Positions 11,756-62,203 of a DNA stretch of 64,000 bases are shown one piece after another. The DNA lies in assembly GCA_017410375.1 (NCBI GenBank), contig JAFQQW010000058.1:9192-73191 (forward strand), read 5' to 3'. Below the pieces are notes generated by a model. That model was not told the origin of the DNA. It saw only the letters and a list, made by a program, of their open reading frames with translations, and ran no database searches. Each line of letters starts with the position of its first letter. The first letter of the stretch is position 1. The position numbers and the translations under genes are program-made. Source of the stretch: Clostridia bacterium (lineage in GTDB: Bacteria > Bacillota > Clostridia > RGIG6154).

Positions 11756-11858
11756 CCTCTTTCCTCCCTCTTCCTTTTTTCCTTACTATTGTACACGAAT
11801 TTTTGTGCGTTGTCAATATATTTTAACGAAAAGAAACCGCCAAAGCGGTTTCTTTTTA

Positions 11859-12464: not shown

Positions 12465-12527
12465 ATTATCCCATCCTCTCTATTCTGCTATCCTTAATAT
12501 ACCACATTTTCAGCAGTTTTACAAGTT

Positions 12528-13319: not shown

Positions 13320-13460
13320 CTTTTGTTCACCTCTTTAATCAGTATATCTTGTTTTTCTTCGAAAGTCAAGTATCGTTTTGTCCACCTTTTAGTGCGATTT
13401 GTGCGTTTACAATCCACTTTAACCGTGTTACTCTATAGATAGAAAGTGAGGTTTAAAAAA

Positions 13461-14810: not shown

Positions 14811-14825
14811 GAAAGGAAATATGTT

Positions 14826-38406: not shown

Positions 38407-39591
38407 TTAATCTCTGAAATATAAGTCTCTGGTATACACCTTATCTAAAACATCCGCAATGTCCTCCGAATAGCGGTTTGCCAGAATTACGTCGCTGATT
38501 TCCTTAAACTCTGCCAAATCACGGATTACACGGCTGTTAAAGAATTTGTCATCATGCATGGTCGGCTCATAAATAACCACCTCAATGCCCTTTGCCTTGA
38601 TACGCTTCATAACCCCCTGAATAGAGCTTTGACGGAAATTGTCCGACCCCGCCTTCATGGTCAGACGGTAAATGCCAACCGTCTTGGGTTGCTTTGCGAT
38701 AATCTGGTCTGCAATAAAATCTTTTCGGGTGCCGTTTGCCGCCACAATTGCCGAAATGATGTTTTGGGGCACATCATTGTAGTTTGCAAGCAACTGCTTT
38801 GTGTCTTTGGGCAGACAGTAGCCGCCGTACCCGAAAGAGGGATTGTTATAGTGATTGCCGATTCTGGGGTCTAAGCCAACCCCCTCGATGATGGATTTTG
38901 TGTCTAAATTCCGCACCTGTGCATAGGTATCCAACTCATTAAAGAAAGATACGCGAAGGGCTAAGTAAGTGTTTGCAAAAAGCTTTACCGCTTCTGCCTC
39001 TGTAGGGTTCATGTAGCGGATTTCAATATCCTCTTTTAAAGCCCCGTCTTTTAAAAGACCTGCAAAGGTTTCTGCCGCTTTTCTAAGGCGTGCATTCTTT
39101 ACCGGCACACCCACAATGATACGGCTGGGATACAAATTGTCATAAAGTGCTCTGCCCTCACGCAAAAATTCGGGGCTGAACAAAATGTTGTCACAGCAAA
39201 ATCTTTCCCGCACCGATTCGGTGTAGCCTACCGGCACGGTGGATTTGATAATCATCACCGCATCGGGGTTTACTGCAATCACCTGCTCGATCACACTTTC
39301 TACCGAGGACGTATCAAAATAATTTTTGTTCGGGTCATAATTTGTGGGGGTGGAGATGACAACCATATCCGCATCCTTGTACGCAGACGCCCCGTCTGTG
39401 GTTGCGGTTAAATTCAGTTCTTTTTTGCTTAAATATTCTGCAATTTCCTTGTCCTGAATGGGTGAAATGCGATTGTGAATCATATTCACCTTTTCTTCAA
39501 TAATGTCTACCGCCGTAACGGTATTTTTCTGTGCCAGAAGAACGGCAACCGAAAGTCCTACATACCCGGTGCCTGCAACTGCAATTTTCAT
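38407..39591 (-). CDS. ugd: UDP-glucose 6-dehydrogenase
   Basis: N-terminal [15 protein letters not shown]-binding motif; UDPGDH central and C-terminal regions with the catalytic-Cys context GGYCLPKD. Confidence 0.9.
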
Positions 39592-39733: not shown

Positions 39734-40468
39734 TTATTTTATACCTTTATAATCCTTCTGTACCTGTTCGTAGCTTTCTAAATTGCCGATGTCATAGCGC
39801 TTGCCGGGCATTTCCATGGCATGCACCTTAGTCTGCTGACAAAGCCATGCAATGTAGCTTCCGGGCGCGTCCACACCGCAGCCGTCGTTGATGCCCTTTT
39901 CCACAAGGCGCGCATCGTCCCTGGTATAGAAATAAAAGGGCGGGGTTGCCCAATGGGTTTCGGGATTGGGCGATTTTTCGGTCATTTTCAAAACCAAATC
40001 ATTTTCATCAACGGTTACCACACCGCATTTTAAAAGCTTCTGATCGCTTTCTTCATAGTAACGCATAATGCAGGAGGTCTGCTTTGCTTTTGCGTACTTA
40101 ATAAACTCGGTAAGCGAAAAATCCAACAGATTATCCCCTGCGATAACCAACATATCGTCATCAAGCCCTAATTGATCAATGGTAAACTGAATGTCCTTTA
40201 CCGCCCCTAAGCGGGTTTCATTGGATTCGGTGCCGTCATCCACAACTGTGATTTTCTGGCTCTTTTCAGCCGCCCAGGCATCAAAATGATGGGCAAACTT
40301 GTGGTTGGAAATCACCACATATTCGTCAATCTCACCCAAAGTGTCAATATCGTCAATCAGCCAGTCCAAAATGGTCTTGTCCTGAACCTTTAAAAGAGGC
40401 TTGGGGAAATTTTCGGTTAAAGGATACAGTCTTGTGGCATAGCCTGCCGCTAAAATCAAACATTTCAT
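39734..40468 (-). CDS. sugar-1-phosphate nucleotidyltransferase (NTP_transferase fold)
   Basis: LILAAGYATRLYPLT...PKPLL signature of sugar nucleotidyltransferases; AGGAGTG RBS before the ATG at 40468. Confidence 0.75.
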   Translation of the reverse strand: MKCLILAAGYATRLYPLTENFPKPLLKVQDKTILDWLIDDIDTLGEIDEYVVISNHKFAHHFDAWAAEKSQKITVVDDGTESNETRLGAVKDIQFTIDQLGLDDDMLVIAGDNLLDFSLTEFIKYAKAKQTSCIMRYYEESDQKLLKCGVVTVDENDLVLKMTEKSPNPETHWATPPFYFYTRDDARLVEKGINDGCGVDAPGSYIAWLCQQTKVHAMEMPGKRYDIGNLESYEQVQKDYKGIK

Positions 40469-40473
40469 ATTGT

Positions 40474-41655
40474 TCACACTCCTAATTCTGCACCGTCGGC
40501 ACTGTCACAAAAATGTACCGAGTACTTGCCCTTAAGTTCCGGGAACGCCTTTAAATATTCTTCGCTTACCTGTTGCTCAATTTTTTCTGCAAAGGCAGGG
40601 TCGATAAGCGCCATACAGCACCCCTTAAAGCCTGCACCCGAGAATCTTCCGCCGTAAATACCGTCAGTTTTGGTCATAATTTCATAAAGGGTTTTAAGCT
40701 CGGGCGAGCCGGTTTCCCAATTATAAATGGAAGAATGACCGCTTTCAAAAGAAAGCTTGCCGTAGGTTTCAATATCGCCCTTTCTCCAGGCCTCTGCACC
40801 CCTTTGCACCCGGTCAAATTCGGTGTACCAGTGCTCGGCACGCTTTGCCCAGTTTTCAGGCAGTTTTTCTTTGTATTTCAAATACACTTCATACGGAACG
40901 TGTCTTAAATTCGCTTCTTCAAATTTGCCGTACTCCATACCTGCATACGCCTGCAACGCATACGCCGCCGAACGGCATTCGTCCACTCGCATGTTAAATT
41001 TGGAGCCTGCAAGGGTTCTTTCCACGCCTGAAAACAGCACCATAAGCTTATAGGGCTTCATGTTGGGATTTGTGTCAATCAACTCAAAGCTGTCGTCCAT
41101 TGTATCTAAGTACAAAAGCTTATCCTTTTTGGAAAACACTTCGCAAGACTGGTCCAGCTTACCACAAGAAACACCCACATATTTATTTTCCGCTTCCTTT
41201 GCAGTGAGTATCATTTCAATCGGAGAAAGGGTTACATTGTTCACCTTACAAAGTGCGGACAAAAACGCAATGATAACCGCCGCCGAGGAAGATAAGCCCC
41301 CGATAGGCAAGCTACCCTCAATCACACCGCAAAGCCCGATTTCTAAGTTTCTTCTTTTGGCAAGGGCCAGTGCCGCACCGCGCAGATAATCTGCCCAGTC
41401 GTTCTGCTTTTCCTTTGGAATGGACGATACATGGAACTGCGCACGCTTGTCAAATTGCAGGGAATTTAATTCAATGACCCCGTTCTGTTTGGGACGGTAG
41501 GCGATATGAATGCCCTTGTCAATGGCAAAGCCCGTAATTTTGCCCAACTGATGGTCGCTGTGGGCACCAATGGGGCAAATGCGGTAAGGACAAAAGGCAA
41601 GCGCCTCCGCTTCTCTGTGATAAATTTCAAAAAACTTCTCCTGACATCTCATCAT
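40474..41655 (-). CDS. GHMP-family sugar-1-kinase, galactokinase-like
   Basis: Galactokinase signature R.CPIGAHSDHQLG and GHMP ATP-binding motif PIGGLSSSAAV. Confidence 0.8.
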   Translation of the reverse strand: MMRCQEKFFEIYHREAEALAFCPYRICPIGAHSDHQLGKITGFAIDKGIHIAYRPKQNGVIELNSLQFDKRAQFHVSSIPKEKQNDWADYLRGAALALAKRRNLEIGLCGVIEGSLPIGGLSSSAAVIIAFLSALCKVNNVTLSPIEMILTAKEAENKYVGVSCGKLDQSCEVFSKKDKLLYLDTMDDSFELIDTNPNMKPYKLMVLFSGVERTLAGSKFNMRVDECRSAAYALQAYAGMEYGKFEEANLRHVPYEVYLKYKEKLPENWAKRAEHWYTEFDRVQRGAEAWRKGDIETYGKLSFESGHSSIYNWETGSPELKTLYEIMTKTDGIYGGRFSGAGFKGCCMALIDPAFAEKIEQQVSEEYLKAFPELKGKYSVHFCDSADGAELGV

Positions 41656-41673
41656 AACTTATATTAACTCCAA

Positions 41674-42741
41674 TTATAAATAGAATTCTTTATACCATTT
41701 TGCAAATTTTCTTAATCCCTCTCGAAGTGACGTGGACGGCTTAAAGCCAAAGTCCGCTTCCAAAGCAGAGGTGTCTGCATAGGTTACCGGCACGTCACCC
41801 GGTTGCATGGGTACTAACTTTTTGTGTGCATCAAAATCAAAATCCTTCGGAAGCACGCCGGCACCTACTAATTCCTGCTGCAGAATATCCACAAAATCCA
41901 GTAAATTTTCGGGTGAGTTGTTGCCGATGTTATATACCGCATAGGGCGGAAGCGGTAAGCCGTCCTCCCCTGCTTTTTTCTCGGGTGCACACGCCATAAC
42001 ACGCATCACACCCTCTACAATATCGTCCACAAAGGTAAAATCACGCTTGCAGTTGCCGAAATTGAAAATTTCAATGGTGTCGCCTTTAATCAGCTTATTG
42101 GTAAAGCCGAAATATGCCATATCGGGACGTCCTGCAGGGCCGTAAACGGTAAAGAACCGAAGCCCCGTGGAAGGAATGTTATAAAGCTTTGAATAGGAGT
42201 GTGCCAGAAGCTCATTGGACTTCTTGGTTGCCGCATACAGCGACACGGGATTGTCCACCTTATCGTCTGTGGAATAGGGAATTTTTTTGTTCGAACCGTA
42301 AACCGAGGAACTGGAGGCATACACCAAATGCTCTACAGGATGGTTTCTGCACGCCTCTAAAATGTTGTAAAACCCGATTAAATTGGACTCAATATACACA
42401 TCGGGATTGGTAATGGAATACCGCACCCCTGCCTGTGCCGCAAGGTTTACCACCACATCAAATTTGTGTTCTTCAAATAAGCCCTCCAGCATCACTTTAT
42501 CTGCAATATTGCCCTTTACAAAGGTCCATTTTGCGTTATGCTTTGCCTGCTCCTTTTCAATTTCGGTTAAACGGTACTCTTTGATAGACACATCATAGTA
42601 ATCGTTCATGTTATCCAACCCCACAATATGCATGGGCGTATCGGTTTTCATGAGCGATAACACCAAATTTGCACCAATAAAGCCTGCCGCACCGGTTACC
42701 AGTATGGTTTTGTTTTCAAAGCTTACATTCTTTTCTCTCAT
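41674..42741 (-). CDS. NAD-dependent epimerase, UDP-glucuronate 4-epimerase-like (Cap1J/GlaE type)
   Basis: TGAAGFIG Rossmann motif, LDNMNDYYD, YxxxK context; next to ugd; TAAGGAGT RBS before the ATG at 42741. Confidence 0.8.
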   Translation of the reverse strand: MREKNVSFENKTILVTGAAGFIGANLVLSLMKTDTPMHIVGLDNMNDYYDVSIKEYRLTEIEKEQAKHNAKWTFVKGNIADKVMLEGLFEEHKFDVVVNLAAQAGVRYSITNPDVYIESNLIGFYNILEACRNHPVEHLVYASSSSVYGSNKKIPYSTDDKVDNPVSLYAATKKSNELLAHSYSKLYNIPSTGLRFFTVYGPAGRPDMAYFGFTNKLIKGDTIEIFNFGNCKRDFTFVDDIVEGVMRVMACAPEKKAGEDGLPLPPYAVYNIGNNSPENLLDFVDILQQELVGAGVLPKDFDFDAHKKLVPMQPGDVPVTYADTSALEADFGFKPSTSLREGLRKFAKWYKEFYL

Positions 42742-42755
42742 TATATACTCCTTAC

Positions 42756-45725
42756 TCAAAATTCCAACGAACAACCCCACACATCAATGCTGTTGTCCTG
42801 GAACACTTCTTTTAATCGTTTGTGTACGGCTTCCTTGGTCACGCCTTTTTTTAAGATAACCTGTAAGAATCCGCCACCGCCTGCACCGCAGATGAGCTTA
42901 CCGCAAATTAAATCCTCTATGGATGCAAAAATCTGGTCAATCAGGGTATTTGTAGAGCCTGCATCTACCATTTGAGAAAGCTCCCAATGGCGGTTTAACA
43001 GCTTTGCAAACTCGTCCACATTGCCACGTTCTAATTCAAATCGCATGAGCACTGCCACACGCTGAATTTCGTTTAAGGCATACAGCGAATCGGGCTGATT
43101 GCCCACATATCTGCCGACCACATCCCGAAGCAGGTTTCTGGCAAGTCGTCTTTGTCCCGTATAGATTAACGCAAACCGTTCGTTTAATTCCTTTTTGGTT
43201 TGTTCATCAATTTCCACATGCTCTACCTTTAATTGCTGATTAAGTGCAGGACGGGAAGTGATGTATTTAATGCCGCTTGTGACACCGCCCACCTGATCCT
43301 GCCAGCCACCGCCTGTGGACATAATCTGTTCCATGCAAAGCACATGGCTGTAGAGCATATCCTCGGTAAACGCAATGCCCATAAACTCAAACACAGCTTT
43401 CACGCATGCAGCAGACAGAATAGAGGACGTACCAAGTCCCGAGCCTTTGGGTACATTGGTTACCTCGGAATGCATTTCAAACCCACCACCGAGACGGGTT
43501 AAAATCTCCTCTAAATTGTGTCCCTCTTTGGGAATGATACCGCATGCCAGAAGTGCCGCCTTTTGCAACGCAAAGGGGTCATAAGGGTCACCTGTTTGCT
43601 GTAAAGGCTCAATGGTATCAAATTCTCCGTGCACATCCATGTCCCGGCTGTCAAACACAATTTTCTTTTCGGGAATCTTGATTAAAGTCACTTCCACAGG
43701 CTTTTCGCCGTTTAAGAAGATTGCCGCATTTAATACTGTACCGCCGTTTTCCATGCAGTAAGGCGGCGTATCGCTCCAGCCACCGCCCCAGTTGACTCTT
43801 AAGGGCAGTTTTACGGTGTGCTTATCCTTTGCAATTTTACAGGTTTCATTAAATTTAAGATTATTCAGGGTTCCTTTTAAAATGCCCTCCTGAATGGTTT
43901 TAAAGCATTTGGCAATGAATTTTTCACCCTCGGCACCGCCTAAAGCTACACCGATGTAATAGTAAAGACGCATCGCCATAGAGAAATCCGCCTGCGCCAG
44001 TCTGCGCTCTAACCATTCCTGCTGAATGCAGGTTAATTTGTCTGCCTGAAGCAGTTTTTTCGCGTCCTCCGCAGGCACTTTTGCTTTGATAAGCTTGACC
44101 AAACCGTCCATGCAAACCAACTCATGCATGCGCTGATTCCAGTCAATAATGGCTTTGGGGTCTGCATGGTTAAAGCCTGACGATAAGCTTTGTCTTTCCG
44201 CCTTGCGCCATGCCTCTTTATCCCCCTTACCCTGCGCCATAGCATACACGTTAAGTGCTGCTGCAACCGCATCTTTAATGTTGTCGCAAGCAGGATATAA
44301 ATTCGCCATCCATAGGGTATGATTGTCTGACCCCCAGATATCGGTTTCTTTTAAACCGTTTTTCTCTAAAAACACCTCTAAACTCTGTCCAAAGAACATA
44401 TTTTCTTTGGGATTATCGGTCACGCCGTAAATGCGTGCCACAAATTTCCCATCCTTTTGCTTTAAGCCGTGCAGAACCACATTATCAGGCACCGTTTCGT
44501 CATGAATGTCAATGTAAGACAGCACCACATTGTTGCCCACCTTCGCATCATGATGCACATACGAAACCTCTAAATAGCAGTTTTCGCCAATTTCCGCTTC
44601 ATCCGAAAGTACGCTGTTGTAGCCACCTGCATTTTTGGTGATACTGCTATTGACCTGTCTGCTCCAGCCCAAATCCTTGTAATTTTCAACGCCCTCTGCC
44701 ATAAGCTCCATAATTTCACGGGTAGTACCGAAATGAATAAACTTGGCAGGTGCTAAACGCAAAAGCTTCATGCGGAAAGGTCTTAAAGCTTCCCACACCT
44801 TTTGTCTTGCTTCTTTTAATTCTGCACAAAACTCACCTTCGGGTGCTTCATTATAAAACTGTTCCAAAGTAGAGTCGCTCGCCAAAGGATATAAGAAATC
44901 ACCATACAAAGAAAGACGAACCGTTTCGTTTACAAAAGCATCAAATTTACCTTCTTCGGCAATAAGTCCGAAAAGGGCTTTTAACATATCGGCAGAGAAA
45001 ACAACTGCACCGGTATCAATATCTACCGCACCGCGTTCATTCACCGCGCCTTGTTCGGTTAAAGTTTCCACCGTTTGCTTGTGCAGGAATTTACGCACAT
45101 TGCCGTCCTCACCATTTAAAAATACGCCGTGGTTTTTGCCGGTTTGAACATCTTCTTTAAAGGAAATTGCCGCAGCACCTACTCCGGAATAGTCAATCTG
45201 CAGGGGATTAAACAATAGCAAAACATCGCCCGACAAAAGCAACATCCCTTCACGGATGCGCGAAGGCACAGAAGACATACAAATCATAAATTCATCAAAC
45301 AAAGTAGATGCTCTGCCGTCGGGCAAAGTATGAGGTACAGGCGAAAACAGTTTTCCAAGCGCAGAATACTGTGGTACTCGCTTACTGTCACCGCCACTAT
45401 GAATAACCAGAATTTTCAGATTTTTAAAATCAGTTGTTTTTGCGTGTTCCGAAATATATTTCAACACGCCCAAAGTTGCACCGCCCGAGCCGACACGTTT
45501 ACCTTCGGGGTCGGGAATGACCGCAAAATGAGTTTCAGACGGAAGCATACCATTTTTCTGTCTGTCTTCAATTTGCATCATAAACCCCTCTGCCTGCTTT
45601 TGGTTGGATGCAGTAAGCACCACATAATCCCACCCGGCAAATCCGGCTTTGGTCAAAGAGCGGTTATAGTCATCCCAGGTATCTTTATAGGATTGTGATA
45701 AGAAAAGTGATGTCATATTTTTCAT
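42756..45725 (-). CDS. fkp: bifunctional L-fucokinase / fucose-1-phosphate guanylyltransferase, Fkp-like (989 aa)
   Basis: N-terminal FPGT-like domain (GWDYVVLTASNQKQAEGF), C-terminal GHMP kinase (PKGSGLGTSSILSAACV); the length matches the 949-aa Bacteroides Fkp. Confidence 0.75.
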   Translation of the reverse strand: MKNMTSLFLSQSYKDTWDDYNRSLTKAGFAGWDYVVLTASNQKQAEGFMMQIEDRQKNGMLPSETHFAVIPDPEGKRVGSGGATLGVLKYISEHAKTTDFKNLKILVIHSGGDSKRVPQYSALGKLFSPVPHTLPDGRASTLFDEFMICMSSVPSRIREGMLLLSGDVLLLFNPLQIDYSGVGAAAISFKEDVQTGKNHGVFLNGEDGNVRKFLHKQTVETLTEQGAVNERGAVDIDTGAVVFSADMLKALFGLIAEEGKFDAFVNETVRLSLYGDFLYPLASDSTLEQFYNEAPEGEFCAELKEARQKVWEALRPFRMKLLRLAPAKFIHFGTTREIMELMAEGVENYKDLGWSRQVNSSITKNAGGYNSVLSDEAEIGENCYLEVSYVHHDAKVGNNVVLSYIDIHDETVPDNVVLHGLKQKDGKFVARIYGVTDNPKENMFFGQSLEVFLEKNGLKETDIWGSDNHTLWMANLYPACDNIKDAVAAALNVYAMAQGKGDKEAWRKAERQSLSSGFNHADPKAIIDWNQRMHELVCMDGLVKLIKAKVPAEDAKKLLQADKLTCIQQEWLERRLAQADFSMAMRLYYYIGVALGGAEGEKFIAKCFKTIQEGILKGTLNNLKFNETCKIAKDKHTVKLPLRVNWGGGWSDTPPYCMENGGTVLNAAIFLNGEKPVEVTLIKIPEKKIVFDSRDMDVHGEFDTIEPLQQTGDPYDPFALQKAALLACGIIPKEGHNLEEILTRLGGGFEMHSEVTNVPKGSGLGTSSILSAACVKAVFEFMGIAFTEDMLYSHVLCMEQIMSTGGGWQDQVGGVTSGIKYITSRPALNQQLKVEHVEIDEQTKKELNERFALIYTGQRRLARNLLRDVVGRYVGNQPDSLYALNEIQRVAVLMRFELERGNVDEFAKLLNRHWELSQMVDAGSTNTLIDQIFASIEDLICGKLICGAGGGGFLQVILKKGVTKEAVHKRLKEVFQDNSIDVWGCSLEF

Positions 45726-45758: not shown

Positions 45759-47318
45759 TTATTTTGCGTGTTTAAGAAAGCGGGAAAATAAAAGTGTTTT
45801 CGCCATTTTAACAGTTTCTTTCAAATAATTGTTTCGCGCAAACACCAAAAGCAGGAATGCTGCGGTCAAAACGGCAGTAAACCCTGCGCGCAACACAAAT
45901 GCGACCAAACTCGTTTTCATACCGAATACCAAGAAATTCAGTTTGTACATCAAGAATGCCCCTGCCGCCGCAATCAGCAGATACGCCGCATTTTTGGAAT
46001 AATAAAGCCACACATTGCGTTGCAAAGCGTGTTTATACACAATCAAAGGCTCCACCCAAAAGGTAACCAGAATGTTACTGATTAACGTACCTGCCAAAAC
46101 GCCGAACACACCGTAATGGCGTACCAATATCAGCGAAACAATCAGATTCATAATAGATTCAATAAACACTCTGTATCTGTCCTGCCAGAACAGACCACAG
46201 GCAGATTTAAATTGTTCAGCTGTCTTCTGCACACCCAGGAAATAAAAGTTTGCCGTAACAATCAGCACAACCTCAATACCCATACAGTAAGTTTTACCCA
46301 ACCAAAGTGCTATAAAGGGTTCAAACAGGCAAATCATACAAATACTACAGAAAGCATGAATGAAATAATTAACAAAATATGTATGGCAGAATACATCATA
46401 CAACCTCTGTTTGTCGGCACTTTTTTCAGATGCATTCAGATTACCGATGCTTGCCGTCAAAGAAGAGGTAAACATCATGGTGAAATTGTTTAACGCATTT
46501 TTAATAACAAGATAGTTAGAATAAAAACCTGCCGAAGCAACATTTACACAAGAAGCAATAATAAAGCTGTCGGTGCAGTTAATAATCAGACTCCCCGCGC
46601 GATTGAACACCAACGCAGTGGTATTTTTGACAATATTCTTTTTGTCTTCGGGGTCAACAGGATTCACCTTACCACCAAAAAATTGCGGATACAGCTTTTT
46701 GGCTTTATATGAAACAAATCCGTATATAACGGTATTCTGTAAGGACTGCAGTGCGAGATATACCATATATTTCTTTGTCAGGAACAAGAAGAAAATCTCC
46801 AGAATATTAATTGCCGCAACACTGACTATTTTGACTTTTGAAACAATGTACGATTTTTGGTGTGCAACAATCACACATTGCTTGTCTGCAAAAAAATAGA
46901 AAGAAACCGTGCTGAGCAACATAAAAAGATAAATTACGTAAAGATTTTCAGGGATATCCGGCGTTTCTTTCAGCAAAGAATCCAAAAACGGCATCAAAGC
47001 CAGCCCGATACACAGCACCACAACGCCTATTATATAATAACACGTTCTGTACAAGCGGAACAATGTACGGCATTTTTCGGTATCCCCATCCGCAATAGGC
47101 TTGTACACACTGTATGTAATGGCAGTCCCGATACCCACATTTACGATTTCAATCATATTGATGATGTTTAAGAAAACCGCATCAATCCCCAAATAATTCT
47201 GCCCCAAAAATTTGATAAAAAATGTTCTGGTAACAAATGGCAAAATTGTAATCAAGAGTGTATTCAACATGCCGTATTTTAAATTTTGAAACGAACTATG
47301 CGTTCTGCTTTCCGCCAT
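45759..47318 (-). CDS. wzx: polysaccharide flippase Wzx (MOP/MATE-like polysaccharide biosynthesis protein)
   Basis: About 14 TM helices; N-terminal loop pattern of Wzx/RfbX. Confidence 0.75.
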   Translation of the reverse strand: MAESRTHSSFQNLKYGMLNTLLITILPFVTRTFFIKFLGQNYLGIDAVFLNIINMIEIVNVGIGTAITYSVYKPIADGDTEKCRTLFRLYRTCYYIIGVVVLCIGLALMPFLDSLLKETPDIPENLYVIYLFMLLSTVSFYFFADKQCVIVAHQKSYIVSKVKIVSVAAINILEIFFLFLTKKYMVYLALQSLQNTVIYGFVSYKAKKLYPQFFGGKVNPVDPEDKKNIVKNTTALVFNRAGSLIINCTDSFIIASCVNVASAGFYSNYLVIKNALNNFTMMFTSSLTASIGNLNASEKSADKQRLYDVFCHTYFVNYFIHAFCSICMICLFEPFIALWLGKTYCMGIEVVLIVTANFYFLGVQKTAEQFKSACGLFWQDRYRVFIESIMNLIVSLILVRHYGVFGVLAGTLISNILVTFWVEPLIVYKHALQRNVWLYYSKNAAYLLIAAAGAFLMYKLNFLVFGMKTSLVAFVLRAGFTAVLTAAFLLLVFARNNYLKETVKMAKTLLFSRFLKHAK

Positions 47319-47320
47319 GT

Positions 47321-48619
47321 TTACCTCCTTTTCAATTTCCGCGTGGTTTTTTGATTAACATAATCTATGATGTAGGGCGAAGCCGGCACCATAAAAAGAA
47401 TACATGTAGGAATGATAAAATTTAACATAACGGGCTGTGCAACATACATAATAAAGAAGATAATATACAAAGCCGTATATTTGCAGTTTAAATTTAATTT
47501 TTCAAACCCCTTTTTGATAGTTTCAGCCATTTTGTAGTAAAAAACACCCATAGCCGCAGTGAACCAAAATCCATATCTTGCCATATCCGAGAACAACTGC
47601 GAATGTTCGTGCACAACATATGTACCGTTGCCCGCCCCCTGATAGTAAGAGCCAACCCCGAGACCATAGGTGTTGAAGAAAGTCTCCAAGTCCCACAGCC
47701 AACGGTCGCTTCGTGCCGCCATATCACCGGTCGCCTCACCGCCAATCAGCGAGCTGCCCATATCATAAACCTTCCAGGATATATAGTGATTTTCAATGTG
47801 TGTTGCCGCTTCCTGTAACCACGCACCAACAACACTTTTAAAAAACAGCAAGAAAGCAAGCGAAAAAATAGTCACCACAAATTTGGTTGCAGGCGTTCTG
47901 TTTTGCAAAATAACCAAAACAGGCGCAAGAAAAGCGCAAACAAAAACAGTACCGGTTGAGCAAATAAGTGCAAGACAAAAACAAATGATAACAATAATCC
48001 AAGCCGCCACTCTCACCCAGCATTTTTTTAAGCATTTGCCTTGTAACATACACAAAAGCATTGTACCGATCAGAATAGAGCAGTAAATATGATGCACATT
48101 ACCGATATTTTTGAAATAGTTTTCCGCTATCATGTCGGTTTGACTTGAAAATTCACGATAGGATGCCGGATTTTCAATAAGACCGAGCAATGTTGTAAAA
48201 AGCGTAAACGCAAATGCAAGAAAAACAACGCACCCCAAAGAACCGAGCGCTTGCTTTTTATCGGTATAATAATAGTAATAGTATACAAGAAATACATACC
48301 ACGGTCCTGCAATCATAATAAACATTTCTGCCGCGTTACCGATACCAAGCAAGGCAAAATATACATATATCCCGATAAAAAGGAATGCCAGCACACCACA
48401 TATTGTTCCGTTAAAAAACCAGTTTGGTCTTAAAAAGTAACTTGTGCAAAACCATCCGCCCATAACGGTTGCCATGATAAGCGTATACAAACCACCCAAA
48501 AGGGGCGCTTGTACAATAGGCACAATCATCAAAAAGATGGATACCATTGCAAAAAAGTAATTGGAAAACAGCCAGAATTTTTCACTGAAATCTGCTTTTC
48601 TTTCCAAATTGTACATCAT
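47321..48619 (-). CDS. wzy: oligosaccharide repeat-unit polymerase, Wzy-like
   Basis: Polytopic membrane protein with one large extracytoplasmic loop, in a wzx-wzy context. Confidence 0.5.
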   Translation of the reverse strand: MMYNLERKADFSEKFWLFSNYFFAMVSIFLMIVPIVQAPLLGGLYTLIMATVMGGWFCTSYFLRPNWFFNGTICGVLAFLFIGIYVYFALLGIGNAAEMFIMIAGPWYVFLVYYYYYYTDKKQALGSLGCVVFLAFAFTLFTTLLGLIENPASYREFSSQTDMIAENYFKNIGNVHHIYCSILIGTMLLCMLQGKCLKKCWVRVAAWIIVIICFCLALICSTGTVFVCAFLAPVLVILQNRTPATKFVVTIFSLAFLLFFKSVVGAWLQEAATHIENHYISWKVYDMGSSLIGGEATGDMAARSDRWLWDLETFFNTYGLGVGSYYQGAGNGTYVVHEHSQLFSDMARYGFWFTAAMGVFYYKMAETIKKGFEKLNLNCKYTALYIIFFIMYVAQPVMLNFIIPTCILFMVPASPYIIDYVNQKTTRKLKRR

Positions 48620-48628
48620 TTCACTTCC

Positions 48629-49741
48629 TCATTTACATCTATACTTAATTTTTCGGTATAACCACACTTTAAAGGGCGGCGACACCGTATATTTTTTCAA
48701 TTTCTTCAAAATATTTTCCGCACTTAATCCTTCAAAAAAGGCGTCTCTCTCTTTGTGCATTGCTATATTCTGATGTTGTTCCATGGCGGTATGTTCTATT
48801 TTTTTCACACGACAATCTTCTTTTGCCGCTTGCAGCAATGCCTCACCTTTCGAGGTGTGCACAATGGCTTTTCCTGTGCCTCTCTCATCCGCGAAAGTCG
48901 CATCATATTTGGCAATATCAAAGAAATCACCTATCGTTATATCCGATGCGTGCATTTTATCCTGCGCACTGCAGGTATAACAACTTTTACGCAAAAACAG
49001 ATTCTGCAGATACCCGCGCATATACAAATCGTCCTGATGATATTTGCAATATCTGACTTTTGCCGACTGAATGCGTACACTGTACGCCCGCCAGGAAATA
49101 CGCTTATCCCGAAACGCGATTTTTTCAGGTCTCCCTTTGGCAATTTTCCGACTGTAAAAATCAAAAACTTTCGGACTGCCTACACCGTGGCATAAAAAAT
49201 CCACAAGGTACACATTGTCACGCGCACCCAAAAACGCTTTAACTGCACCAATCTGGCAAGGTGTTCCGCAAATCAGAACTTTCTCGCCTGCATCCGCCTT
49301 TTCTTTCAGAAGCGGTAATGCATCGTAAAGATTGCTTTGTACATATTTGGAACCAAGCAGTTTTGCGAGCTCGTTTTGGTTATTTGCCGCCTGATGGGAA
49401 AGCATACCTTTCTCATCAAATGCCGCACCGAACACGGTGCCGCCCTGCCCGATGATCCACATCGCCAAAGCAGAAAACATCCCGCCCGAAGAAGATTTTT
49501 GCAATACTTCAGGGGATTTATGTACCGTTGCGTACACACTTTCCCGAATGTCCGTCTGTACCGTCTTTTGCAAGGCAACGCAGTTGCGCATACATTTACC
49601 GCATTGTGTACATCGCGTACCGACTATCTCCGGATATAAAAATCCCTCTGTATTTTCTCGCATGATTATCGCCTGTGCGGGACAACCTTCGGCACATACA
49701 CCGCAACCGACACATTCATTTTCGGGCAAACGGATATTCAT
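48629..49741 (-). CDS. coenzyme F420 hydrogenase/dehydrogenase beta-subunit-like Fe-S protein (polysaccharide pyruvylation-associated)
   Basis: N-terminal 2x[4Fe-4S] ferredoxin motifs CVGCGVCAEGCP / CTQCGKCMRNC; partner of the pyruvyl transferase. Confidence 0.7.
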   Translation of the reverse strand: MNIRLPENECVGCGVCAEGCPAQAIIMRENTEGFLYPEIVGTRCTQCGKCMRNCVALQKTVQTDIRESVYATVHKSPEVLQKSSSGGMFSALAMWIIGQGGTVFGAAFDEKGMLSHQAANNQNELAKLLGSKYVQSNLYDALPLLKEKADAGEKVLICGTPCQIGAVKAFLGARDNVYLVDFLCHGVGSPKVFDFYSRKIAKGRPEKIAFRDKRISWRAYSVRIQSAKVRYCKYHQDDLYMRGYLQNLFLRKSCYTCSAQDKMHASDITIGDFFDIAKYDATFADERGTGKAIVHTSKGEALLQAAKEDCRVKKIEHTAMEQHQNIAMHKERDAFFEGLSAENILKKLKKYTVSPPFKVWLYRKIKYRCK

Positions 49742-49752
49742 TGTACTCTCCT

Positions 49753-50922
49753 TTATAATAATTCCTTCAACGCCTTTGCGGCGGTATATGCATTTTCAAC
49801 ATATTCGGGCATAATTTCCTGCAAATGTGCACGAACTTCCTCTTTTTTGTCATCCAACGCACGGTATGCCTGTGTAAGTTCATCCTTGCCGTGCATATCT
49901 TTCATGGAAATGACATATCCTTGCTCGGTGCCAAACAAATCCCGTGCAATGCCGACAGATTTTATGCTGTACCCGATAACCAATGTAGGCACACACATCG
50001 CGTATGCCGAAATGGAAGAATGGGTTCTTGCACAAATTAACATTTCACATTTGGAAATGATATCCCGAAGCTGTGCATATTTATAATCAGTACCGATTAT
50101 TTTCACACGTCCGGTATGTACATATTGGTCAAACAGTGGTTTCATACAAGCATAGTCGCTGTTTCCGTCAAAATTTACATGTGGAATAAACAAAATATTT
50201 TTTTCGGTATCATTTAAAATGTATTCAATCAGATTCTGCACCGATTTAAGTACATCTGCATTTTTGCCGCCCTGCGTAACAATGGGACTGAAATTGATGC
50301 CCACCGTATTGGGTTCCACCTCAAATTTACTGTCTTCCTTCTGAATGGTAAAAGCGGGATCGGACACCCGTACCACCTTTGCATTTTTCAATTTTCCGGA
50401 CAACGCATTAAAGGTTTCTTCTTCGCGTGCGGTAATCAGTGCATAGCCGTCCAAATCAGCAATCATGGCATCATTTAAAAATGCCGCATCCACACTGCAC
50501 CCCCACAAGACACGTTTAAAACCGGCCTTGTCAATCAAACGGTTACTGTAATACAACCATGCAGGCGTTTCGCAACAATAGTTGTCCCCGCCAATGGACA
50601 TGAACACTGTATCCTTCGGTTGTTTTTGGATACTCTTTTTAAAATTCGGATATGTTTTTCTTGCCACAATTTCTTCATCTTTAAAGAATTTACGCCAAGC
50701 ACCGTAAATTTTACGCAAAAACTTGTTTTTTGTATAACTGTCGGGATAAATTTCTTTTATTGTTCCCTTTGGAAGAAAACGATCATCCGCCGCCTTTTCC
50801 AGACTGGAAAGCACAAATTCGTTATCCTCTTTGCCAATCATATTTACGCTGGACACCACAATGGCTTCACAACCATGGTTATTACATCCGCCATGTCCGT
50901 ACATATAATATCTTTTTTTCAC
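49753..50922 (-). CDS. polysaccharide pyruvyl transferase (WcaK/CsaB family)
   Basis: N-terminal YGHGGCNNHGCEAIV (GxxNxGDxAI-like) motif of PS_pyruv_trans. Confidence 0.75.
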   Translation of the reverse strand: MKKRYYMYGHGGCNNHGCEAIVVSSVNMIGKEDNEFVLSSLEKAADDRFLPKGTIKEIYPDSYTKNKFLRKIYGAWRKFFKDEEIVARKTYPNFKKSIQKQPKDTVFMSIGGDNYCCETPAWLYYSNRLIDKAGFKRVLWGCSVDAAFLNDAMIADLDGYALITAREEETFNALSGKLKNAKVVRVSDPAFTIQKEDSKFEVEPNTVGINFSPIVTQGGKNADVLKSVQNLIEYILNDTEKNILFIPHVNFDGNSDYACMKPLFDQYVHTGRVKIIGTDYKYAQLRDIISKCEMLICARTHSSISAYAMCVPTLVIGYSIKSVGIARDLFGTEQGYVISMKDMHGKDELTQAYRALDDKKEEVRAHLQEIMPEYVENAYTAAKALKELL

Positions 50923-52037
50923 AGCTTATTCACCTCATCAAAAATTGCTTGCATTTCCGCTTCCAGATCGGTTGCGTTGTGCTTGGCTTTGCACGCCGCA
51001 TACGCTTTGTCGAAATCGATTTCCCCGGCCATAGCGTTACGTAATGCATCGGCACAGCTTTTCGGGTCGTCTTTGCGATACGCAAATACATGCCCATACA
51101 TAAATTCTTTTAAATTGTCATAATCTGGCACAACAATCGGCTTTCTTGCCGCACACGCCTCATATATCAATCGCGTCTGATGCGCCTTAGTCGGCGAAAA
51201 CAGTACCGTATCACAAGCTGCATACAATTGTTCCACCTGTTGTGTAGGCGGAACAATTTCAATTTTGTCTGCAAGACCATGCTTTCGTATATACATAAGA
51301 CAAGTTTTGGCATAACTTTGTGCCTGTGCTTCTTCAAAGGTTTTGGAAGAAACAATTAACAATTTACAGTTTTCTGTTTCTTTCAATGCTTTTAATGCCG
51401 TCAATGTTCCCTTCAATCGATTGATACCACCCAGAAACAGTATCTTTTTGGGGTTGTCGGAATTTAAAAAGCCTTCCTGCTTGTCATACAAATCAAAATC
51501 CACTTTATCATATAAAACAGTTTTAAAAATATCTGACTTGTCGAAAAAGTGCATATCATATGCCGAAATGAACACCAACCCATCAAAATGTGCTGCCATT
51601 TGTTTACGGATATGTGATGCATACAGAGTGTCCGGCAAAGTTTCCCTTTGCAGACAAATGGCTTTCTTGCCATATTTCTTTGCAATCGCCCCTGTATAAA
51701 ATAAGGTAAGTGAATTGGCAATCACCAAATCACAATCACTATTTTTAATACAATTTTCTATGATTTTTTTCGTTTTGCACACATGGCGCATGGAACTCCA
51801 GAATGAGGGCGACAACAGATTGGTCACACCACCGTTATAGTAAGGATTTGACATAACCCACGGCACACGTTGCACCGAAAAACCATCCTTTTCCAAACGT
51901 TTGCATGTATCTTCAGGCTTGGTTGTGTTTAAAAAGGAAACGGAATCTCCACGATTTTTAAGTGCATTTGCCAACTGCATCATGCTGACTGAAGAACCGC
52001 CCCACACACCTGCGTGATTGATAAAAAGAATCTTCAT
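50919..52037 (-). CDS. glycosyltransferase family 4 (GT-B)
   Basis: N-terminal MKILFINHAGVWGG and a C-terminal E-x7-E-type region. Confidence 0.75.
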   Translation of the reverse strand: MKILFINHAGVWGGSSVSMMQLANALKNRGDSVSFLNTTKPEDTCKRLEKDGFSVQRVPWVMSNPYYNGGVTNLLSPSFWSSMRHVCKTKKIIENCIKNSDCDLVIANSLTLFYTGAIAKKYGKKAICLQRETLPDTLYASHIRKQMAAHFDGLVFISAYDMHFFDKSDIFKTVLYDKVDFDLYDKQEGFLNSDNPKKILFLGGINRLKGTLTALKALKETENCKLLIVSSKTFEEAQAQSYAKTCLMYIRKHGLADKIEIVPPTQQVEQLYAACDTVLFSPTKAHQTRLIYEACAARKPIVVPDYDNLKEFMYGHVFAYRKDDPKSCADALRNAMAGEIDFDKAYAACKAKHNATDLEAEMQAIFDEVNKL

Positions 52038-52951
52038 TATTTTTTGCCCCGTTTCAGTAATTTCCTTATTTTTTTCTTCCAGCGGAGCATAAGGGGTCGA
52101 CGGAATATTTGTGCAACCGCCTTTTCAATGCGCGCGTCTAATTCTACATTTTCAAAACGCACTTTTCCCTTATTTTCGTTAATTTCCGTATCAAAACGGG
52201 TATCTGCGCTGCTTACATGTACGCCCGACCCGTCGTTTCCGCCGTTGGAAACCAATGTTTCTTTCGGCAAAACAAAAAGCATATCATTTTTAAAGGCGTT
52301 ATATGTAAAACGAATTGCCCAGGAATCAATTCTGCCTTCCATTTGCGACATCAGCATCTCGGTTCTGTCGCAACCGGTTTTATTAAAAGCTTTAACTTGC
52401 TTTTTATCTTTTATAAATGTTTTATAGTCACGGATTTCCCAGTCGATTTTTTCCCAACGGTCTTTCCAGGTCGCCCAGGCATAACTGGAACCCCTGCCCA
52501 TCACAAAAACATCATGTTTATAATCAGCAGGGAAGGTTATGGGCAATGTGTATCCGCCCAACGCCCAGATTTTTTGATTGTCACGATAAAATTCCAAACC
52601 TCTGTTCATATAATCCAGAAAATCTTCCGAAACCACGTTATCATCTTCCACAACAATCACATTGCCGTGCTTGCCGATAACATTGTTTACACCCGAAATA
52701 ACCGAGTTTGCCAGCCCCTGGTTTTGGGGAGCTTCCACAACCTCTACTTCGCCAAACCATTCTTTGATCGCATCGGAACGGATATATTCCCGCACCTGCT
52801 CCACTTTTTCGGCAACCTTTTCATTTTTAGGACCATCCGAAAAAATATACAACTTGCTTTCCTTTGCTTCAGGACATTTTGAAAGAGAGGTCAGCAATCT
52901 TTTTGCGTGGTCCGCTCTGTTATAAACAAAAACAACAATTGGTGCTTTCAT
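52037..52951 (-). CDS. putative GT-A-fold glycosyltransferase
   Basis: VVEDD DxD-like motif after a Rossmann-like N-terminus; TAGGAGC RBS before the ATG at 52951; family unclear. Confidence 0.45.
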   Translation of the reverse strand: MKAPIVVFVYNRADHAKRLLTSLSKCPEAKESKLYIFSDGPKNEKVAEKVEQVREYIRSDAIKEWFGEVEVVEAPQNQGLANSVISGVNNVIGKHGNVIVVEDDNVVSEDFLDYMNRGLEFYRDNQKIWALGGYTLPITFPADYKHDVFVMGRGSSYAWATWKDRWEKIDWEIRDYKTFIKDKKQVKAFNKTGCDRTEMLMSQMEGRIDSWAIRFTYNAFKNDMLFVLPKETLVSNGGNDGSGVHVSSADTRFDTEINENKGKVRFENVELDARIEKAVAQIFRRPLMLRWKKKIRKLLKRGKK

Positions 52952-53074
52952 AATTTTGCTCCTATCTGTCGCCGAACAAACTATATGCTTTGGACGACAA
53001 TTTCTTAATCCGCATAAAGCGGGCAATATGTCACGCACCGTCTTCCGACACAGCGGCTGACATATTCACTTAAA

Positions 53075-53973: not shown

Positions 53974-53985
53974 ATCCTTTCCGTT

Positions 53986-56983: not shown

Positions 56984-56988
56984 ATGTA

Positions 56989-58119: not shown

Positions 58120-58120
58120 T

Positions 58121-59278: not shown

Positions 59279-59299
59279 AATTTATCCCACTTTTCTTTT

Positions 59300-60571: not shown

Positions 60572-60572
60572 A

Positions 60573-61535: not shown

Positions 61536-61538
61536 ACC

Positions 61539-62198: not shown

Positions 62199-62203
62199 TC
62201 CTC

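What the first reader, a model, noticed from the sequence alone, without database searches (positions are those of the whole stretch)
39734..42741. Galactokinase-like GHMP kinase plus nucleotidyltransferase wedged between ugd and a UDP-GlcA 4-epimerase: a possible uronic-acid salvage branch
The GalK-like enzyme has the galactokinase signature (R.CPIGAHSDHQLG) and the GHMP motif (PIGGLSSSAAV). It is directly followed by a 245-aa sugar-1-P nucleotidyltransferase (LILAAGYATRLYPLT). Both are flanked by the de novo UDP-GlcA to UDP-GalA route (ugd plus a Cap1J-like epimerase). In plants, GHMP-family galacturonokinase and glucuronokinase plus a UDP-sugar pyrophosphorylase salvage GalA and GlcA into UDP-sugars. 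The nearby GH78, GH43 and GH39 genes imply growth on pectin or hemicellulose, where free GalA, Gal or Ara is abundant. A bacterial kinase/pyrophosphorylase salvage pair feeding a capsule pathway in parallel with the de novo route would be unusual. Alternatives are Gal, GalNAc or L-Ara 1-kinase activity.
Basis: inference. Interest (0 to 1): 0.55.

Follow-up and report, generated by a model that had tools for sequence, protein, structure and literature searches.

The report
Bacterial galacturonokinase-like kinase plus nucleotidyltransferase pair
A gut Clostridia capsule operon carries a tightly linked two-gene module, a kinase related to the plant galacturonic-acid kinase plus a small sugar-phosphate nucleotidyltransferase, that most likely recycles free uronic acids into activated UDP-sugars; the module is widespread in gut and rumen bacteria and appears never to have been tested.

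Summary
On the minus strand, at the 3' end of a ~25-kb Wzx/Wzy-type polysaccharide operon, lie Fkp-like, an SDR epimerase, a 393-aa GHMP kinase, a 244-aa nucleotidyltransferase (NT) and Ugd.

- The kinase is not a canonical galactokinase. It falls below every NCBIfam GalK cut-off.
- It carries PYRICPxGAHxDHQ instead of GRVNLIGEHTDY.
- It separates from GalKs at 100/100 bootstrap.
- It is 39% identical (248 bits) to Arabidopsis galacturonokinase, the only characterised member of that clade.
- The NT matches no defined RmlA, GalU or AglF equivalog.

Kinase and NT are adjacent in 74 of 76 species loci. The pair recurs in candidate division KSB1 at about 40% identity. A UDP-GlcA-4-epimerase-like ortholog lies next to it in 26 of 52 loci. 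Close copies (70-80% identity) occur in Clostridia, Bacteroidales, one Opitutales genome and a Lactococcus garvieae EPS plasmid.

The most likely function is uronic acid (GalA and/or GlcA) to uronate-1-P to UDP-uronate. This would be a bacterial analogue of plant GalAK plus USP that uses a different pyrophosphorylase fold. Sugar and nucleotide specificity are inferred, not shown. I found no paper on a bacterial enzyme of this kind.

The parts
40474..41655 (-). GalAK-like GHMP sugar-1-kinase, 393 aa
   Evidence: Pfam GalKase_gal_bdg, GHMP_kinases_N and GHMP_kinases_C. Below all GalK equivalog cut-offs. 39% identity, 248 bits, E 4e-83 to the Arabidopsis galacturonokinase cluster P0121. Separates from GalKs at 100/100 bootstrap.
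41542..41583 (-). Sugar-binding signature R25-ICPIGAHSDHQLG-38. Ala31 replaces the GalK Glu, and His35-Gln36 replace Tyr-Asn/Thr.
   Evidence: Alignment with E. coli, Pyrococcus and human GalK and with plant GalAK. Among 88 family rows (representatives, close homologues and plant GalAKs): Ala 84/88, His 85/88, Gln 85/88. GalKs have Glu 5/6 and Tyr 6/6.
41275..41307 (-). GHMP ATP-binding motif PIGGLSSSAAV (residues 117-127)
40996..40998 (-). Codon for Phe220. It aligns with Tyr236 of human GALK1 and Tyr250 of Arabidopsis GalAK.
   Evidence: Phe in 70 of 80 close loci and Tyr in 9 of 80. Family rows: Tyr 51, Phe 34.
39734..40468 (-). Sugar-1-phosphate nucleotidyltransferase, 244 aa; partner of the kinase, 5 nt downstream
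41674..42741 (-). SDR epimerase, 355 aa; UDP-glucuronate 4-epimerase-like
   Evidence: Pfam Epimerase, 6.5e-53. PDB 5u4q 368 bits. B. cereus UDP-GlcA 4-epimerase 6zl6 145 bits, MoeE5 110 bits. An ortholog lies next to the kinase-NT pair in 26 of 52 loci.
38407..39591 (-). UDP-glucose 6-dehydrogenase (Ugd), 394 aa; last gene of the operon
   Evidence: Three UDPG_MGDP_dh domains. TIGR03026 332 bits, above cut-off. PRK15057 609 bits.
42756..45725 (-). Fkp-like bifunctional L-fucokinase/fucose-1-P guanylyltransferase, 989 aa (context: a second salvage enzyme)
   Evidence: PF07959, 5.5e-93, plus GHMP N and C domains. NF009948 483 bits, below its cut-off of 721.
45759..63451 (-). Upstream part of the same polysaccharide operon. 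Gene order: DegT aminotransferase, Bac_transf, ATP-grasp, CapK-like, four GT1, TupA-like ATP-grasp, GT2, pyruvyl transferase, FrhB-like, 432-aa membrane protein, 519-aa flippase-like protein.

Best explanation
The kinase and the NT form a two-step salvage module for a free uronic acid.

1. The GalAK-like GHMP kinase phosphorylates the anomeric hydroxyl of D-galacturonic acid, and possibly also D-glucuronic acid, using ATP.
2. The translationally coupled 244-aa nucleotidyltransferase condenses the uronate-1-phosphate with an NTP, most likely UTP, to give UDP-GalA or UDP-GlcA.
3. The neighbouring SDR epimerase interconverts the two UDP-uronates.
4. Ugd supplies the same pool de novo from UDP-glucose.
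5. The glycosyltransferases of the operon then use the UDP-uronates.

Shown here: family membership of the kinase, the conserved pairing with the NT, and the recurrent linkage to the epimerase and Ugd. Inferred: the sugar, the nucleotide and the physiological direction.
For: Kinase family:
- 39% identity, 248 bits, full length to Arabidopsis galacturonokinase. E. coli, Pyrococcus and human GalK give 137-159 bits. The best PDB GalK gives 148 bits.
- Below all five NCBIfam GalK cut-offs.
- The family signature PYRICPxGAHxDHQ is shared with plant GalAK. Ala replaces the GalK Glu.
- In the signature, 6 of 8 discriminating positions are GalAK-like and 1 is GalK-like.
- 100/100 bootstrap split from GalKs.

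Pairing with the NT:
- The NT is directly downstream in 74 of 76 loci.
- The pair stays intact through three different cassette orders.
- In KSB1 both proteins are about 40% identical to the window proteins and still adjacent.

Link to uronic acids:
- The epimerase ortholog lies within 2.5 kb in 26 of 52 loci, and Ugd is nearby in 9 of 52.
- The cassette EPI-KIN-NT-UGD also sits in a Lactococcus garvieae EPS plasmid.
- The epimerase matches UDP-GlcA 4-epimerase structures.
- The operon also encodes a TupA-like ATP-grasp protein. From my own knowledge, not checked here, TupA is associated with teichuronopeptide synthesis, which would fit a uronic-acid polymer.

Precedent for salvage in the same operon: an Fkp-like gene lies immediately upstream.

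Nucleotide:
- The NT's best full-length profile match is the haloarchaeal UTP-glucose-1-P uridylyltransferase AglF (76 bits).
- Its highest structural sequence identity is to GalU (26%).
Against: - Identity to the only characterised GalAK is 39-42%, and the window kinase sits in a different subclade. Specificity may have drifted.
- Phe220 replaces the Tyr conserved in GalK and plant GalAK.
- Half of the loci with enough flanking sequence have no epimerase or Ugd nearby. In Bacteroidales the pair often stands alone.
- Two distant family members (P0259, P0260) have no adjacent NT.
- The NT's sugar and nucleotide specificity cannot be read from sequence or fold.
- No uronate transporter was identified.
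- A GalT gene lies 11 kb away and the window holds no canonical galK. A role in galactose metabolism is therefore not formally excluded.
Confidence: 0.6

Rival explanations
1. The kinase is a divergent anomeric kinase for a neutral or N-acetylated sugar (D-Gal, GalNAc, L-Ara or similar). The NT makes the matching NDP-sugar for the capsule. On this reading, the linkage to the epimerase and Ugd only reflects the usual clustering of nucleotide-sugar genes.
For: - A Pfam galactokinase signature hit is present.
- TIGR00131 scores 202.7 bits, not far below its cut-off of 226.65.
- Canonical-motif GalK representatives reach 203-207 bits.
- In some Clostridia loci the pair follows FnlA/B/C-like genes, not uronate genes.
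- GalT is present with no canonical galK in the window.
Against: - The Glu of the GalK sugar signature is replaced by Ala in 84 of 88 family rows and in all 80 close loci. GalK has Glu at this position and plant GalAK has Ala. From my recollection of GalK structures, not verified here, this Glu contacts the galactose.
- The family splits from GalKs at 100/100 bootstrap.
- The only characterised member is GalA kinase.
- A Leloir kinase would pair with GalT, not with a PF00483 NT. The pairing with the NT holds in 74 of 76 loci.
- The epimerase ortholog is adjacent in 50% of loci across phyla.
Confidence: 0.17
2. The pair activates an acidic or modified sugar other than GalA or GlcA (for example GalNAcA, ManA or an amidated uronate), or it makes a non-UDP nucleotide sugar (CDP-, GDP- or dTDP-linked).
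For: - The NT matches no defined equivalog.
- The operon has DegT, ATP-grasp and CapK-like genes that could modify sugars.
- Phe220 and Lys219 differ from plant GalAK.
Against: - The adjacent epimerase and Ugd belong to UDP-sugar families.
- The best full-length profile match of the NT is a uridylyltransferase, AglF.
- No positive evidence points to any particular alternative sugar.
Confidence: 0.15
3. The module is a decaying or dispensable passenger with no current function in this organism.
For: In the L. garvieae plasmid the kinase is frameshifted and the NT match covers only residues 4-220. The epimerase and Ugd there are intact.
Against: - In the window both ORFs are intact, tightly spaced (5 nt) and inside an operon with no internal terminator.
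- Identical or nearly identical (about 91% or more) copies recur on several independent contigs.
- All catalytic motifs are conserved.
Confidence: 0.03

Closest known systems
Arabidopsis galacturonokinase GalAK (At3g10700, EC 2.7.1.44; Yang et al. 2009, cited in PMC8636097 and PMC3355719) working with UDP-sugar pyrophosphorylase 'Sloppy'
   Same: Same GHMP subfamily: 39% identity over the full length, the shared PYRICPxGAHxDHQ signature and GLSSSAA. Same two-step logic: anomeric kinase, then pyrophosphorylase, running in parallel with the de novo route through Ugd and a 4-epimerase.
   Different: - Bacterial, and in a different subclade.
- Phe replaces Tyr250, and Lys replaces Arg in GAGF(R/K)GC.
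- The genes are embedded in a capsule/EPS operon.
Canonical galactokinase GalK (Leloir pathway; TIGR00131, PRK05101 and related models)
   Same: GHMP fold. Arg25, His32, Asp34 and Asp168 align with the catalytic and sugar-binding Arg37, His44, Asp46 and Asp186 of human GALK1.
   Different: - Below every curated cut-off.
- Glu to Ala and Tyr to His in the signature.
- 100/100 bootstrap separation.
- Partnered with an NT and not with GalT.
Bacteroides fragilis Fkp (bifunctional L-fucokinase/GDP-fucose pyrophosphorylase; PMC11982464, PMC6468028)
   Same: A bacterial GHMP kinase plus pyrophosphorylase that salvages a free sugar for surface glycans. An Fkp-like gene lies directly upstream in this operon.
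   Different: Fkp is a single fused 950-990-aa protein of other GHMP and NT lineages, specific for fucose and GTP. Here there are two separate proteins of the GalK-like and RmlA-like lineages.
Zebrafish GKUP, glucuronokinase fused to a bacterial-type ~260-aa nucleotidyltransferase domain (PMC3938481)
   Same: A uronic-acid 1-kinase physically coupled to a short bacterial-type NT for UDP-uronate salvage. The paper lists gut Firmicutes, Alistipes and haloarchaeal proteins as the nearest prokaryotic NTs.
   Different: The kinase there is GlcAK. [quoted passage not shown] Whether its NT domain belongs to the same clade as the window NT could not be tested, because no sequence was available.
AmgK/MurU MurNAc salvage (Pseudomonas)
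   Different: From my own knowledge, not tested here, AmgK is not a GHMP kinase. The sugar is MurNAc. The MurU equivalog cut-off (250 bits) is not reached.

Membership tests
Galacturonokinase (GalAK) subfamily of GHMP kinases | GHMP kinase domains and the ATP-binding motif | tested here: met
   PF00288 at 3.3e-12 and PF08544 at 1.6e-07; motif PIGGLSSSAAV.
Galacturonokinase (GalAK) subfamily of GHMP kinases | Subfamily signature PYRICPxGAHxDHQ, with Ala in place of the GalK Glu and His-Gln in place of Tyr-Asn/Thr | tested here: met
   Window: CPYRICPIGAHSDHQLG. Plant GalAK: PYRICPLGAHIDHQGG. GalK: GRVNLIGEHTDY.
Galacturonokinase (GalAK) subfamily of GHMP kinases | Closer to characterised GalAK than to any GalK, and on the GalAK side of the GalK/GalAK split | tested here: met
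   248 bits to At GalAK against 137-207 bits to GalKs. The split has 100/100 NJ bootstrap. The window kinase is, however, in a different subclade from the plant enzymes.
Galacturonokinase (GalAK) subfamily of GHMP kinases | Tyr at the position of At GalAK Tyr250 (human GALK1 Tyr236) | tested here: not met
   Phe220 in the window and in 70 of 80 close loci. Family rows are Tyr 51, Phe 34. From my recollection of Yang et al. 2009, which I could not read here, the Y250F mutant of GalAK also accepts GlcA.
Galacturonokinase (GalAK) subfamily of GHMP kinases | ATP-dependent formation of alpha-D-GalA-1-phosphate | not testable with these tools
   Requires an enzyme assay.
Canonical galactokinase (GalK) | Score at or above the curated equivalog cut-off | tested here: not met
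   TIGR00131 202.7 < 226.65; PRK05322 213.6 < 385; PRK03817 218.4 < 443; PRK05101 198.5 < 499; PRK00555 128 < 509.
Canonical galactokinase (GalK) | GEHTDY sugar-binding motif and Leloir gene context (galT, galE, galM) | tested here: not met
   The motif is GAHSDH. The neighbours are an NT, an epimerase and Ugd. GalT is 11 kb away in a different gene group.
Sugar-1-phosphate nucleotidyltransferase superfamily (PF00483, RmlA/GalU fold) | Domain and fold | tested here: met
Defined NT equivalogs (RmlA, GalU, AglF, MurU, HddC, RfbF, GlgC, GlmU) | Score at or above the curated cut-off | tested here: not met
   The best are Arch_glmU 77.8 < 292, AglF 76 < 400, rmlA_long 63 < 320, rmlA 52 < 361 and galU 48 < 327.
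Plant/protist UDP-sugar pyrophosphorylase (USP, 'Sloppy') | UDPGP-type enzyme of about 600 aa | tested here: not met
UDP-glucuronate 4-epimerase (Cap1J, GlaKP, BcUGAepi type) | Extended SDR related to characterised UDP-GlcA 4-epimerases | tested here: inconclusive
   PF01370 at 6.5e-53. 145 bits to B. cereus UGAepi 6zl6 and 110 bits to MoeE5. The top hit, 5u4q (368 bits), is labelled 'dTDP-glucose 4,6-dehydratase' and its true activity was not verified here. No curated equivalog model exists in NCBIfam.
Fkp (bifunctional fucokinase/fucose-1-P guanylyltransferase) | N-terminal fucose pyrophosphorylase domain plus C-terminal GHMP kinase domain in one ~950-aa protein | tested here: met
   PF07959 at 312.6 bits plus GHMP N and C domains. 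The NF009948 equivalog score of 483 is below its cut-off of 721, so it is Fkp-like and not a strict equivalog.

The most novel reading that the evidence does not exclude
The kinase-NT pair is a horizontally mobile, self-contained uronic-acid salvage module found in hundreds of gut, rumen and environmental bacterial species. It would let them turn diet-derived GalA (from pectin) or host-derived GlcA directly into UDP-uronates for capsule or EPS synthesis. That would make it a uronate counterpart of Fkp-mediated fucose salvage. It would include the first bacterial galacturonokinase and a new specificity class of small RmlA-fold pyrophosphorylase. The native Tyr-to-Phe change might give the kinase dual GalA/GlcA specificity.
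Probability: 0.5. Interest if true: 0.65.

Novelty: new variant of a known kind. Interest (0 to 1): 0.55.

Why it matters
- **First bacterial example.** If confirmed, this would be the first bacterial uronic-acid anomeric kinase with a dedicated pyrophosphorylase. It would extend the plant GalAK/USP salvage idea to prokaryotes with a different second enzyme.
- **Capsule chemistry linked to diet.** It would add a second route, alongside Fkp, by which gut bacteria could couple sugars freed from diet or host to the chemistry of their surface polysaccharides.
- **Annotation.** It would give a name to a very large protein family. More than 8000 database hits and at least 581 species genomes are now labelled only 'GHMP kinase' or 'nucleotidyltransferase family protein'.
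- **Practical use.** UDP-GalA is hard to make. One group reported that the plant GalA kinase was too unstable and too weakly active (PMC7984243). A robust bacterial kinase-NT pair would be a useful one-pot catalyst.

Tried and rejected
- **Primary GalAK paper.** Yang et al. 2009 (DOI and PMC2755877) is not held. The A41E and Y250F mutagenesis results are therefore cited from memory only. A text search for 'Y250F' found nothing.
- **GalK sugar contacts.** A search for a paper listing them (Glu43, Asp46, Tyr236) found nothing. The structural role of the replaced Glu therefore rests on recollection.
- **'AbGHMP' (PDB 9ulx, 44 bits).** No paper was found, so it was not pursued.
- **Zebrafish GKUP NT domain.** It could not be compared with the window NT.
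- **Gene context of distant relatives.** P0250 gave only a 3.6-kb contig. P0259 and P0260 showed no NT.
- **GH39 ORF look-up.** It is not on record in the contig index.
- **Rfam scan of the window.** No hits.
- **Promoter and terminator scan.** No terminator inside the epimerase-kinase-NT-Ugd run on the coding strand.
- **Ordinary Leloir or dTDP-sugar reading.** Considered and rejected on motif, cut-off, tree and synteny evidence.
Full report
**1. What is in the sequence**

The reported interval holds three co-directional genes on the minus strand:
- an SDR epimerase, 41674-42741, 355 aa;
- a GHMP kinase, 40474-41655, 393 aa;
- a nucleotidyltransferase (NT), 39734-40468, 244 aa from the ATG. 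The GTG at 40477 would add 3 residues.

Ugd follows at 38407-39591. A 989-aa Fkp-like fucokinase/GDP-fucose pyrophosphorylase precedes at 42756-45725.

Intergenic gaps are 14, 18, 5 and 142 nt. No terminator-like site lies between these genes on the coding strand.

The five genes close a ~25-kb operon (63451 to 38407). Upstream it encodes:
- a DegT aminotransferase and a Bac_transf initiating transferase;
- two ATP-grasp proteins (one TupA-like) and a CapK-like protein;
- five glycosyltransferases;
- a pyruvyl transferase with its FrhB-like partner;
- a Wzy-like membrane protein and a flippase-like protein.

This is a Wzx/Wzy-type heteropolysaccharide locus in a Clostridia MAG. GH43, GH78 and GH39 genes lie downstream.

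**2. The kinase is GalAK-like and not a galactokinase**

*Curated models.* It hits the Pfam galactokinase signature. It falls below every NCBIfam galactokinase cut-off, for example TIGR00131 at 202.7 against 226.65. The best solved structure is Pyrococcus horikoshii GalK at 148 bits.

It retrieved the real plant family. The Arabidopsis cluster representative P0121 was 97% identical to my query, and dozens of hits are named 'galacturonokinase'.

*Pairwise scores for the window kinase:*

| Reference | Bits |
|---|---|
| Arabidopsis GalAK cluster (P0121; 39% identity over 373 of 393 residues, E 4e-83) | 248 |
| Two database representatives with the canonical GalK motif | 203-207 |
| E. coli GalK | 159 |
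| Pyrococcus GalK | 156 |
| Human GALK1 | 137 |

*Representative search.* An exhaustive HMMER search of 1.84 billion cluster representatives found 986 proteins at E <= 1e-30. Of the 77 full-length representatives among the best 150, all but two carry the plant GalAK-type signature PYRICPxGAHxDHQ or a close variant. The two exceptions (P0372 and P0373) have the GalK motif GRVNLIGEHTDY or a near variant.

*Tree.* In a neighbour-joining tree of 89 sequences and 371 columns, six GalK-type sequences separate from everything else in 100 of 100 bootstraps. The six are E. coli GalK, two Pyrococcus GalKs, human GALK1 and the two canonical-motif representatives. Plant GalAKs nest among the GAHxDHQ sequences. 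The window kinase sits in another subclade of the same family.

*Discriminating positions.* I took the 31 positions that are conserved within GalKs, conserved within plant GalAKs, and different between the two groups.
- The window kinase has the GalAK residue at 15, the GalK residue at 9 and neither at 7.
- Within the sugar-binding signature the count is 6 GalAK-like to 1 GalK-like.

*Catalytic residues.* Arg25, His32, Asp34 and Asp168 are retained.

*Key changes relative to GalK:*
- Ala31 for Glu43 of human GALK1. This is the position of Ala41 in At GalAK.
- His35-Gln36 for Tyr-Asn/Thr.
- Lys344 in GAGF-K-GC, where GalKs have Gly and plants have Arg.

Removing an acidic residue and adding basic ones near the sugar site is what one would expect for a substrate with a carboxylate. 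That is my inference and it is not shown here.

*One difference from both GalK and plant GalAK.* Phe220 occupies the position of Tyr236 (human GALK1) and Tyr250 (At GalAK). It is Phe in 70 of 80 close homologues and Tyr in 9 of 80. From my recollection of Yang et al. 2009, which I could not read here, the Y250F mutant of GalAK gained activity on GlcA. If that is right, the bacterial enzyme may accept both uronic acids.

Plant glucuronokinase is not a relevant relative. [quoted passage not shown]

**3. The nucleotidyltransferase**

- It is a PF00483 protein.
- Its AF2 model is confident (pLDDT 86.6).
- It reaches no NCBIfam equivalog cut-off. The best full-length match is haloarchaeal AglF, a UTP-glucose-1-P uridylyltransferase, at 76 bits against a cut-off of 400.
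- Public annotation is only 'nucleotidyltransferase family protein' or, wrongly, 'glucose-1-phosphate thymidylyltransferase'.

Fold and superfamily are therefore shown. Sugar and nucleotide are not. UTP is the most reasonable guess. The best matches are uridylyltransferases, and the flanking enzymes belong to UDP-sugar families.

**4. Comparative genomics: a conserved two-gene module**

*Distribution.* A scan of one genome per GTDB species found at least 581 loci encoding a relative of the kinase. The best 80 loci (70-80% identity) come from:
- Clostridia: Acutalibacteraceae, Oscillospiraceae, Christensenellaceae and Faecousia;
- many Bacteroidales: Prevotella, Bacteroidaceae and Muribaculaceae;
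- one Opitutales MAG.

Several of these sit on contigs longer than 200 kb. That pattern indicates horizontal spread among gut and rumen bacteria.

*Synteny:*

| Feature near the kinase | Loci with it | Loci with enough flanking sequence |
|---|---|---|
| NT ortholog immediately downstream | 74 | 76 |
| Epimerase ortholog (>= 50% identity) within 2.5 kb | 26 | 52 |
| Ugd within 4 kb | 9 | 52 |
| Fkp anywhere in the locus | 2 | 52 |

The cassette occurs in at least three orders: KIN-NT-EPI-UGD, EPI-UGD-KIN-NT and EPI-KIN-NT-UGD. KIN-NT stays together in almost all of them; L064 is the one rearranged exception.

*Other contexts.* In some Clostridia the pair follows FnlA/B/C-like genes. In Bacteroidales it often stands outside any obvious polysaccharide locus.

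*A distant pair.* In candidate division KSB1, a kinase 42% identical to the window kinase overlaps a downstream 250-aa NT. That NT is 39% identical (189 bits) to the window NT. This is far closer than any characterised NT (at most 48 bits). The two genes therefore appear to be inherited as a pair. Two other distant relatives lack the NT.

*A cultured carrier.* Lactococcus garvieae plasmid CP066001.1 carries EPI-KIN-NT-UGD inside an EPS cluster. There the kinase is frameshifted and the NT match is partial.

**5. Mechanism proposed**

Free GalA and/or GlcA is phosphorylated at C1 by the kinase. The NT converts the 1-phosphate to the UDP-sugar. The epimerase equilibrates UDP-GalA and UDP-GlcA. 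Ugd provides the de novo route.

This is the logic of plant GalAK plus USP (PMC3355719, PMC8636097) and of Fkp for fucose (PMC11982464). The second enzyme here has a different fold class and is encoded next to the kinase. The zebrafish GKUP fusion of a glucuronokinase with a short bacterial-type NT is a suggestive parallel (PMC3938481). Its authors list gut Firmicutes, Alistipes and haloarchaeal proteins as the nearest prokaryotic NTs. I could not test whether these belong to the family described here.

I put the uronate-salvage reading at about 0.6. Rivals:
- a neutral or N-acetyl sugar kinase, 0.17;
- another acidic or modified sugar, or a non-UDP nucleotide, 0.15;
- a non-functional passenger, 0.03.

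**6. Novelty**

Full-text searches for galacturonokinase, GalA kinase, GalA-1-P, EC 2.7.1.44 and K18677 returned only plant papers or incidental mentions. The library lacks most subscription journals, so this is not proof of absence.

One JGI record calls a relative 'galactokinase/galacturonokinase'. The homology has therefore been noticed by automatic annotation. No biochemical work surfaced.

I rate it a new variant of a known kind: a bacterial, operon-encoded GalAK-like kinase with a dedicated RmlA-fold pyrophosphorylase.

Interest is moderate, 0.55. The concept is not surprising to a nucleotide-sugar specialist. The module is, however, very widespread, mobile, unannotated, directly testable and of practical value for UDP-GalA synthesis (PMC7984243).

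Noticed in passing
window 42756-45725 (-): A 989-aa Fkp-like bifunctional fucokinase/fucose-1-P guanylyltransferase lies immediately upstream of the epimerase. The operon therefore carries two sugar-salvage systems side by side. It scores below the NCBIfam Fkp equivalog cut-off (483 < 721). Fkp co-occurs with the kinase-NT pair in only 2 of 52 related loci.
   Followed up: partly
window 26851-28359 (-) and 25493-26794 (-): A Gram-positive-type galactose-1-phosphate uridylyltransferase (GalT, 502 aa) sits next to a GH39 gene. No canonical galK is found anywhere in the 64-kb window. The only GalK-like gene is the GalAK-like kinase 11 kb away.
   Followed up: partly
L090 (Lactococcus garvieae plasmid CP066001.1), locus 10887-15214: The same EPI-KIN-NT-UGD cassette (66-74% identity for EPI, KIN and UGD; 56% for the partial NT match) lies in a plasmid EPS cluster of a cultured lactic acid bacterium. 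The kinase is split by a frameshift near residue 70, and the NT match covers only residues 4-220. This looks like a decaying salvage branch beside an intact de novo branch.
   Followed up: partly
L005-L084 (genome-contig loci): Kinase orthologs of 70-80% amino-acid identity occur in Clostridia, many Bacteroidales, one Opitutales MAG and a Lactococcus plasmid. This implies recent horizontal transfer of the module across phyla in gut and rumen communities.
   Followed up: partly
L089 6001-7946 (candidate division KSB1): A distant kinase (42% identity) overlaps a 250-aa NT (39% identity to the window NT) in a context with no polysaccharide genes. The pair is old and can stand alone.
   Followed up: yes
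window 56108-56983, 59300-60571 and 60573-61535 (-): A TupA-like ATP-grasp protein, a CapK-like protein and a PylC-like ATP-grasp protein are encoded in the operon. These genes could attach amino acids to uronic-acid carboxylates. That would fit a uronate-rich polymer.
   Followed up: no
window 48629-50922 (-): A polysaccharide pyruvyl transferase is paired with an FrhB/FdhB-like iron-sulfur protein. This pairing is seen in EPS loci, and the role of the second protein is unclear.
   Followed up: no
window 19154-24136 (-): A 1660-aa ORF whose only Pfam match is an N-terminal copper amine oxidase N1 domain. It is probably a large surface or cell-wall protein. The rest of the protein has no family assignment.
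   Followed up: no
window 13446-15911 (+): GH20-like and GH113 glycoside hydrolase genes add to GH39, GH43 and GH78 elsewhere in the window. The organism is equipped for plant or host glycan breakdown, but no pectinase or uronate catabolic gene was identified in the parts I annotated.
   Followed up: no
kinase residue 344 (window 40624-40626) and residue 219 (40999-41001): Lys344 in the motif GAGF-K-GC is invariant in all 80 close loci. Plants have Arg there and every GalK has Gly. Lys219 replaces the GalK Glu that sits next to the sugar-contacting Tyr. Both are candidates for binding the C6 carboxylate.
   Followed up: partly
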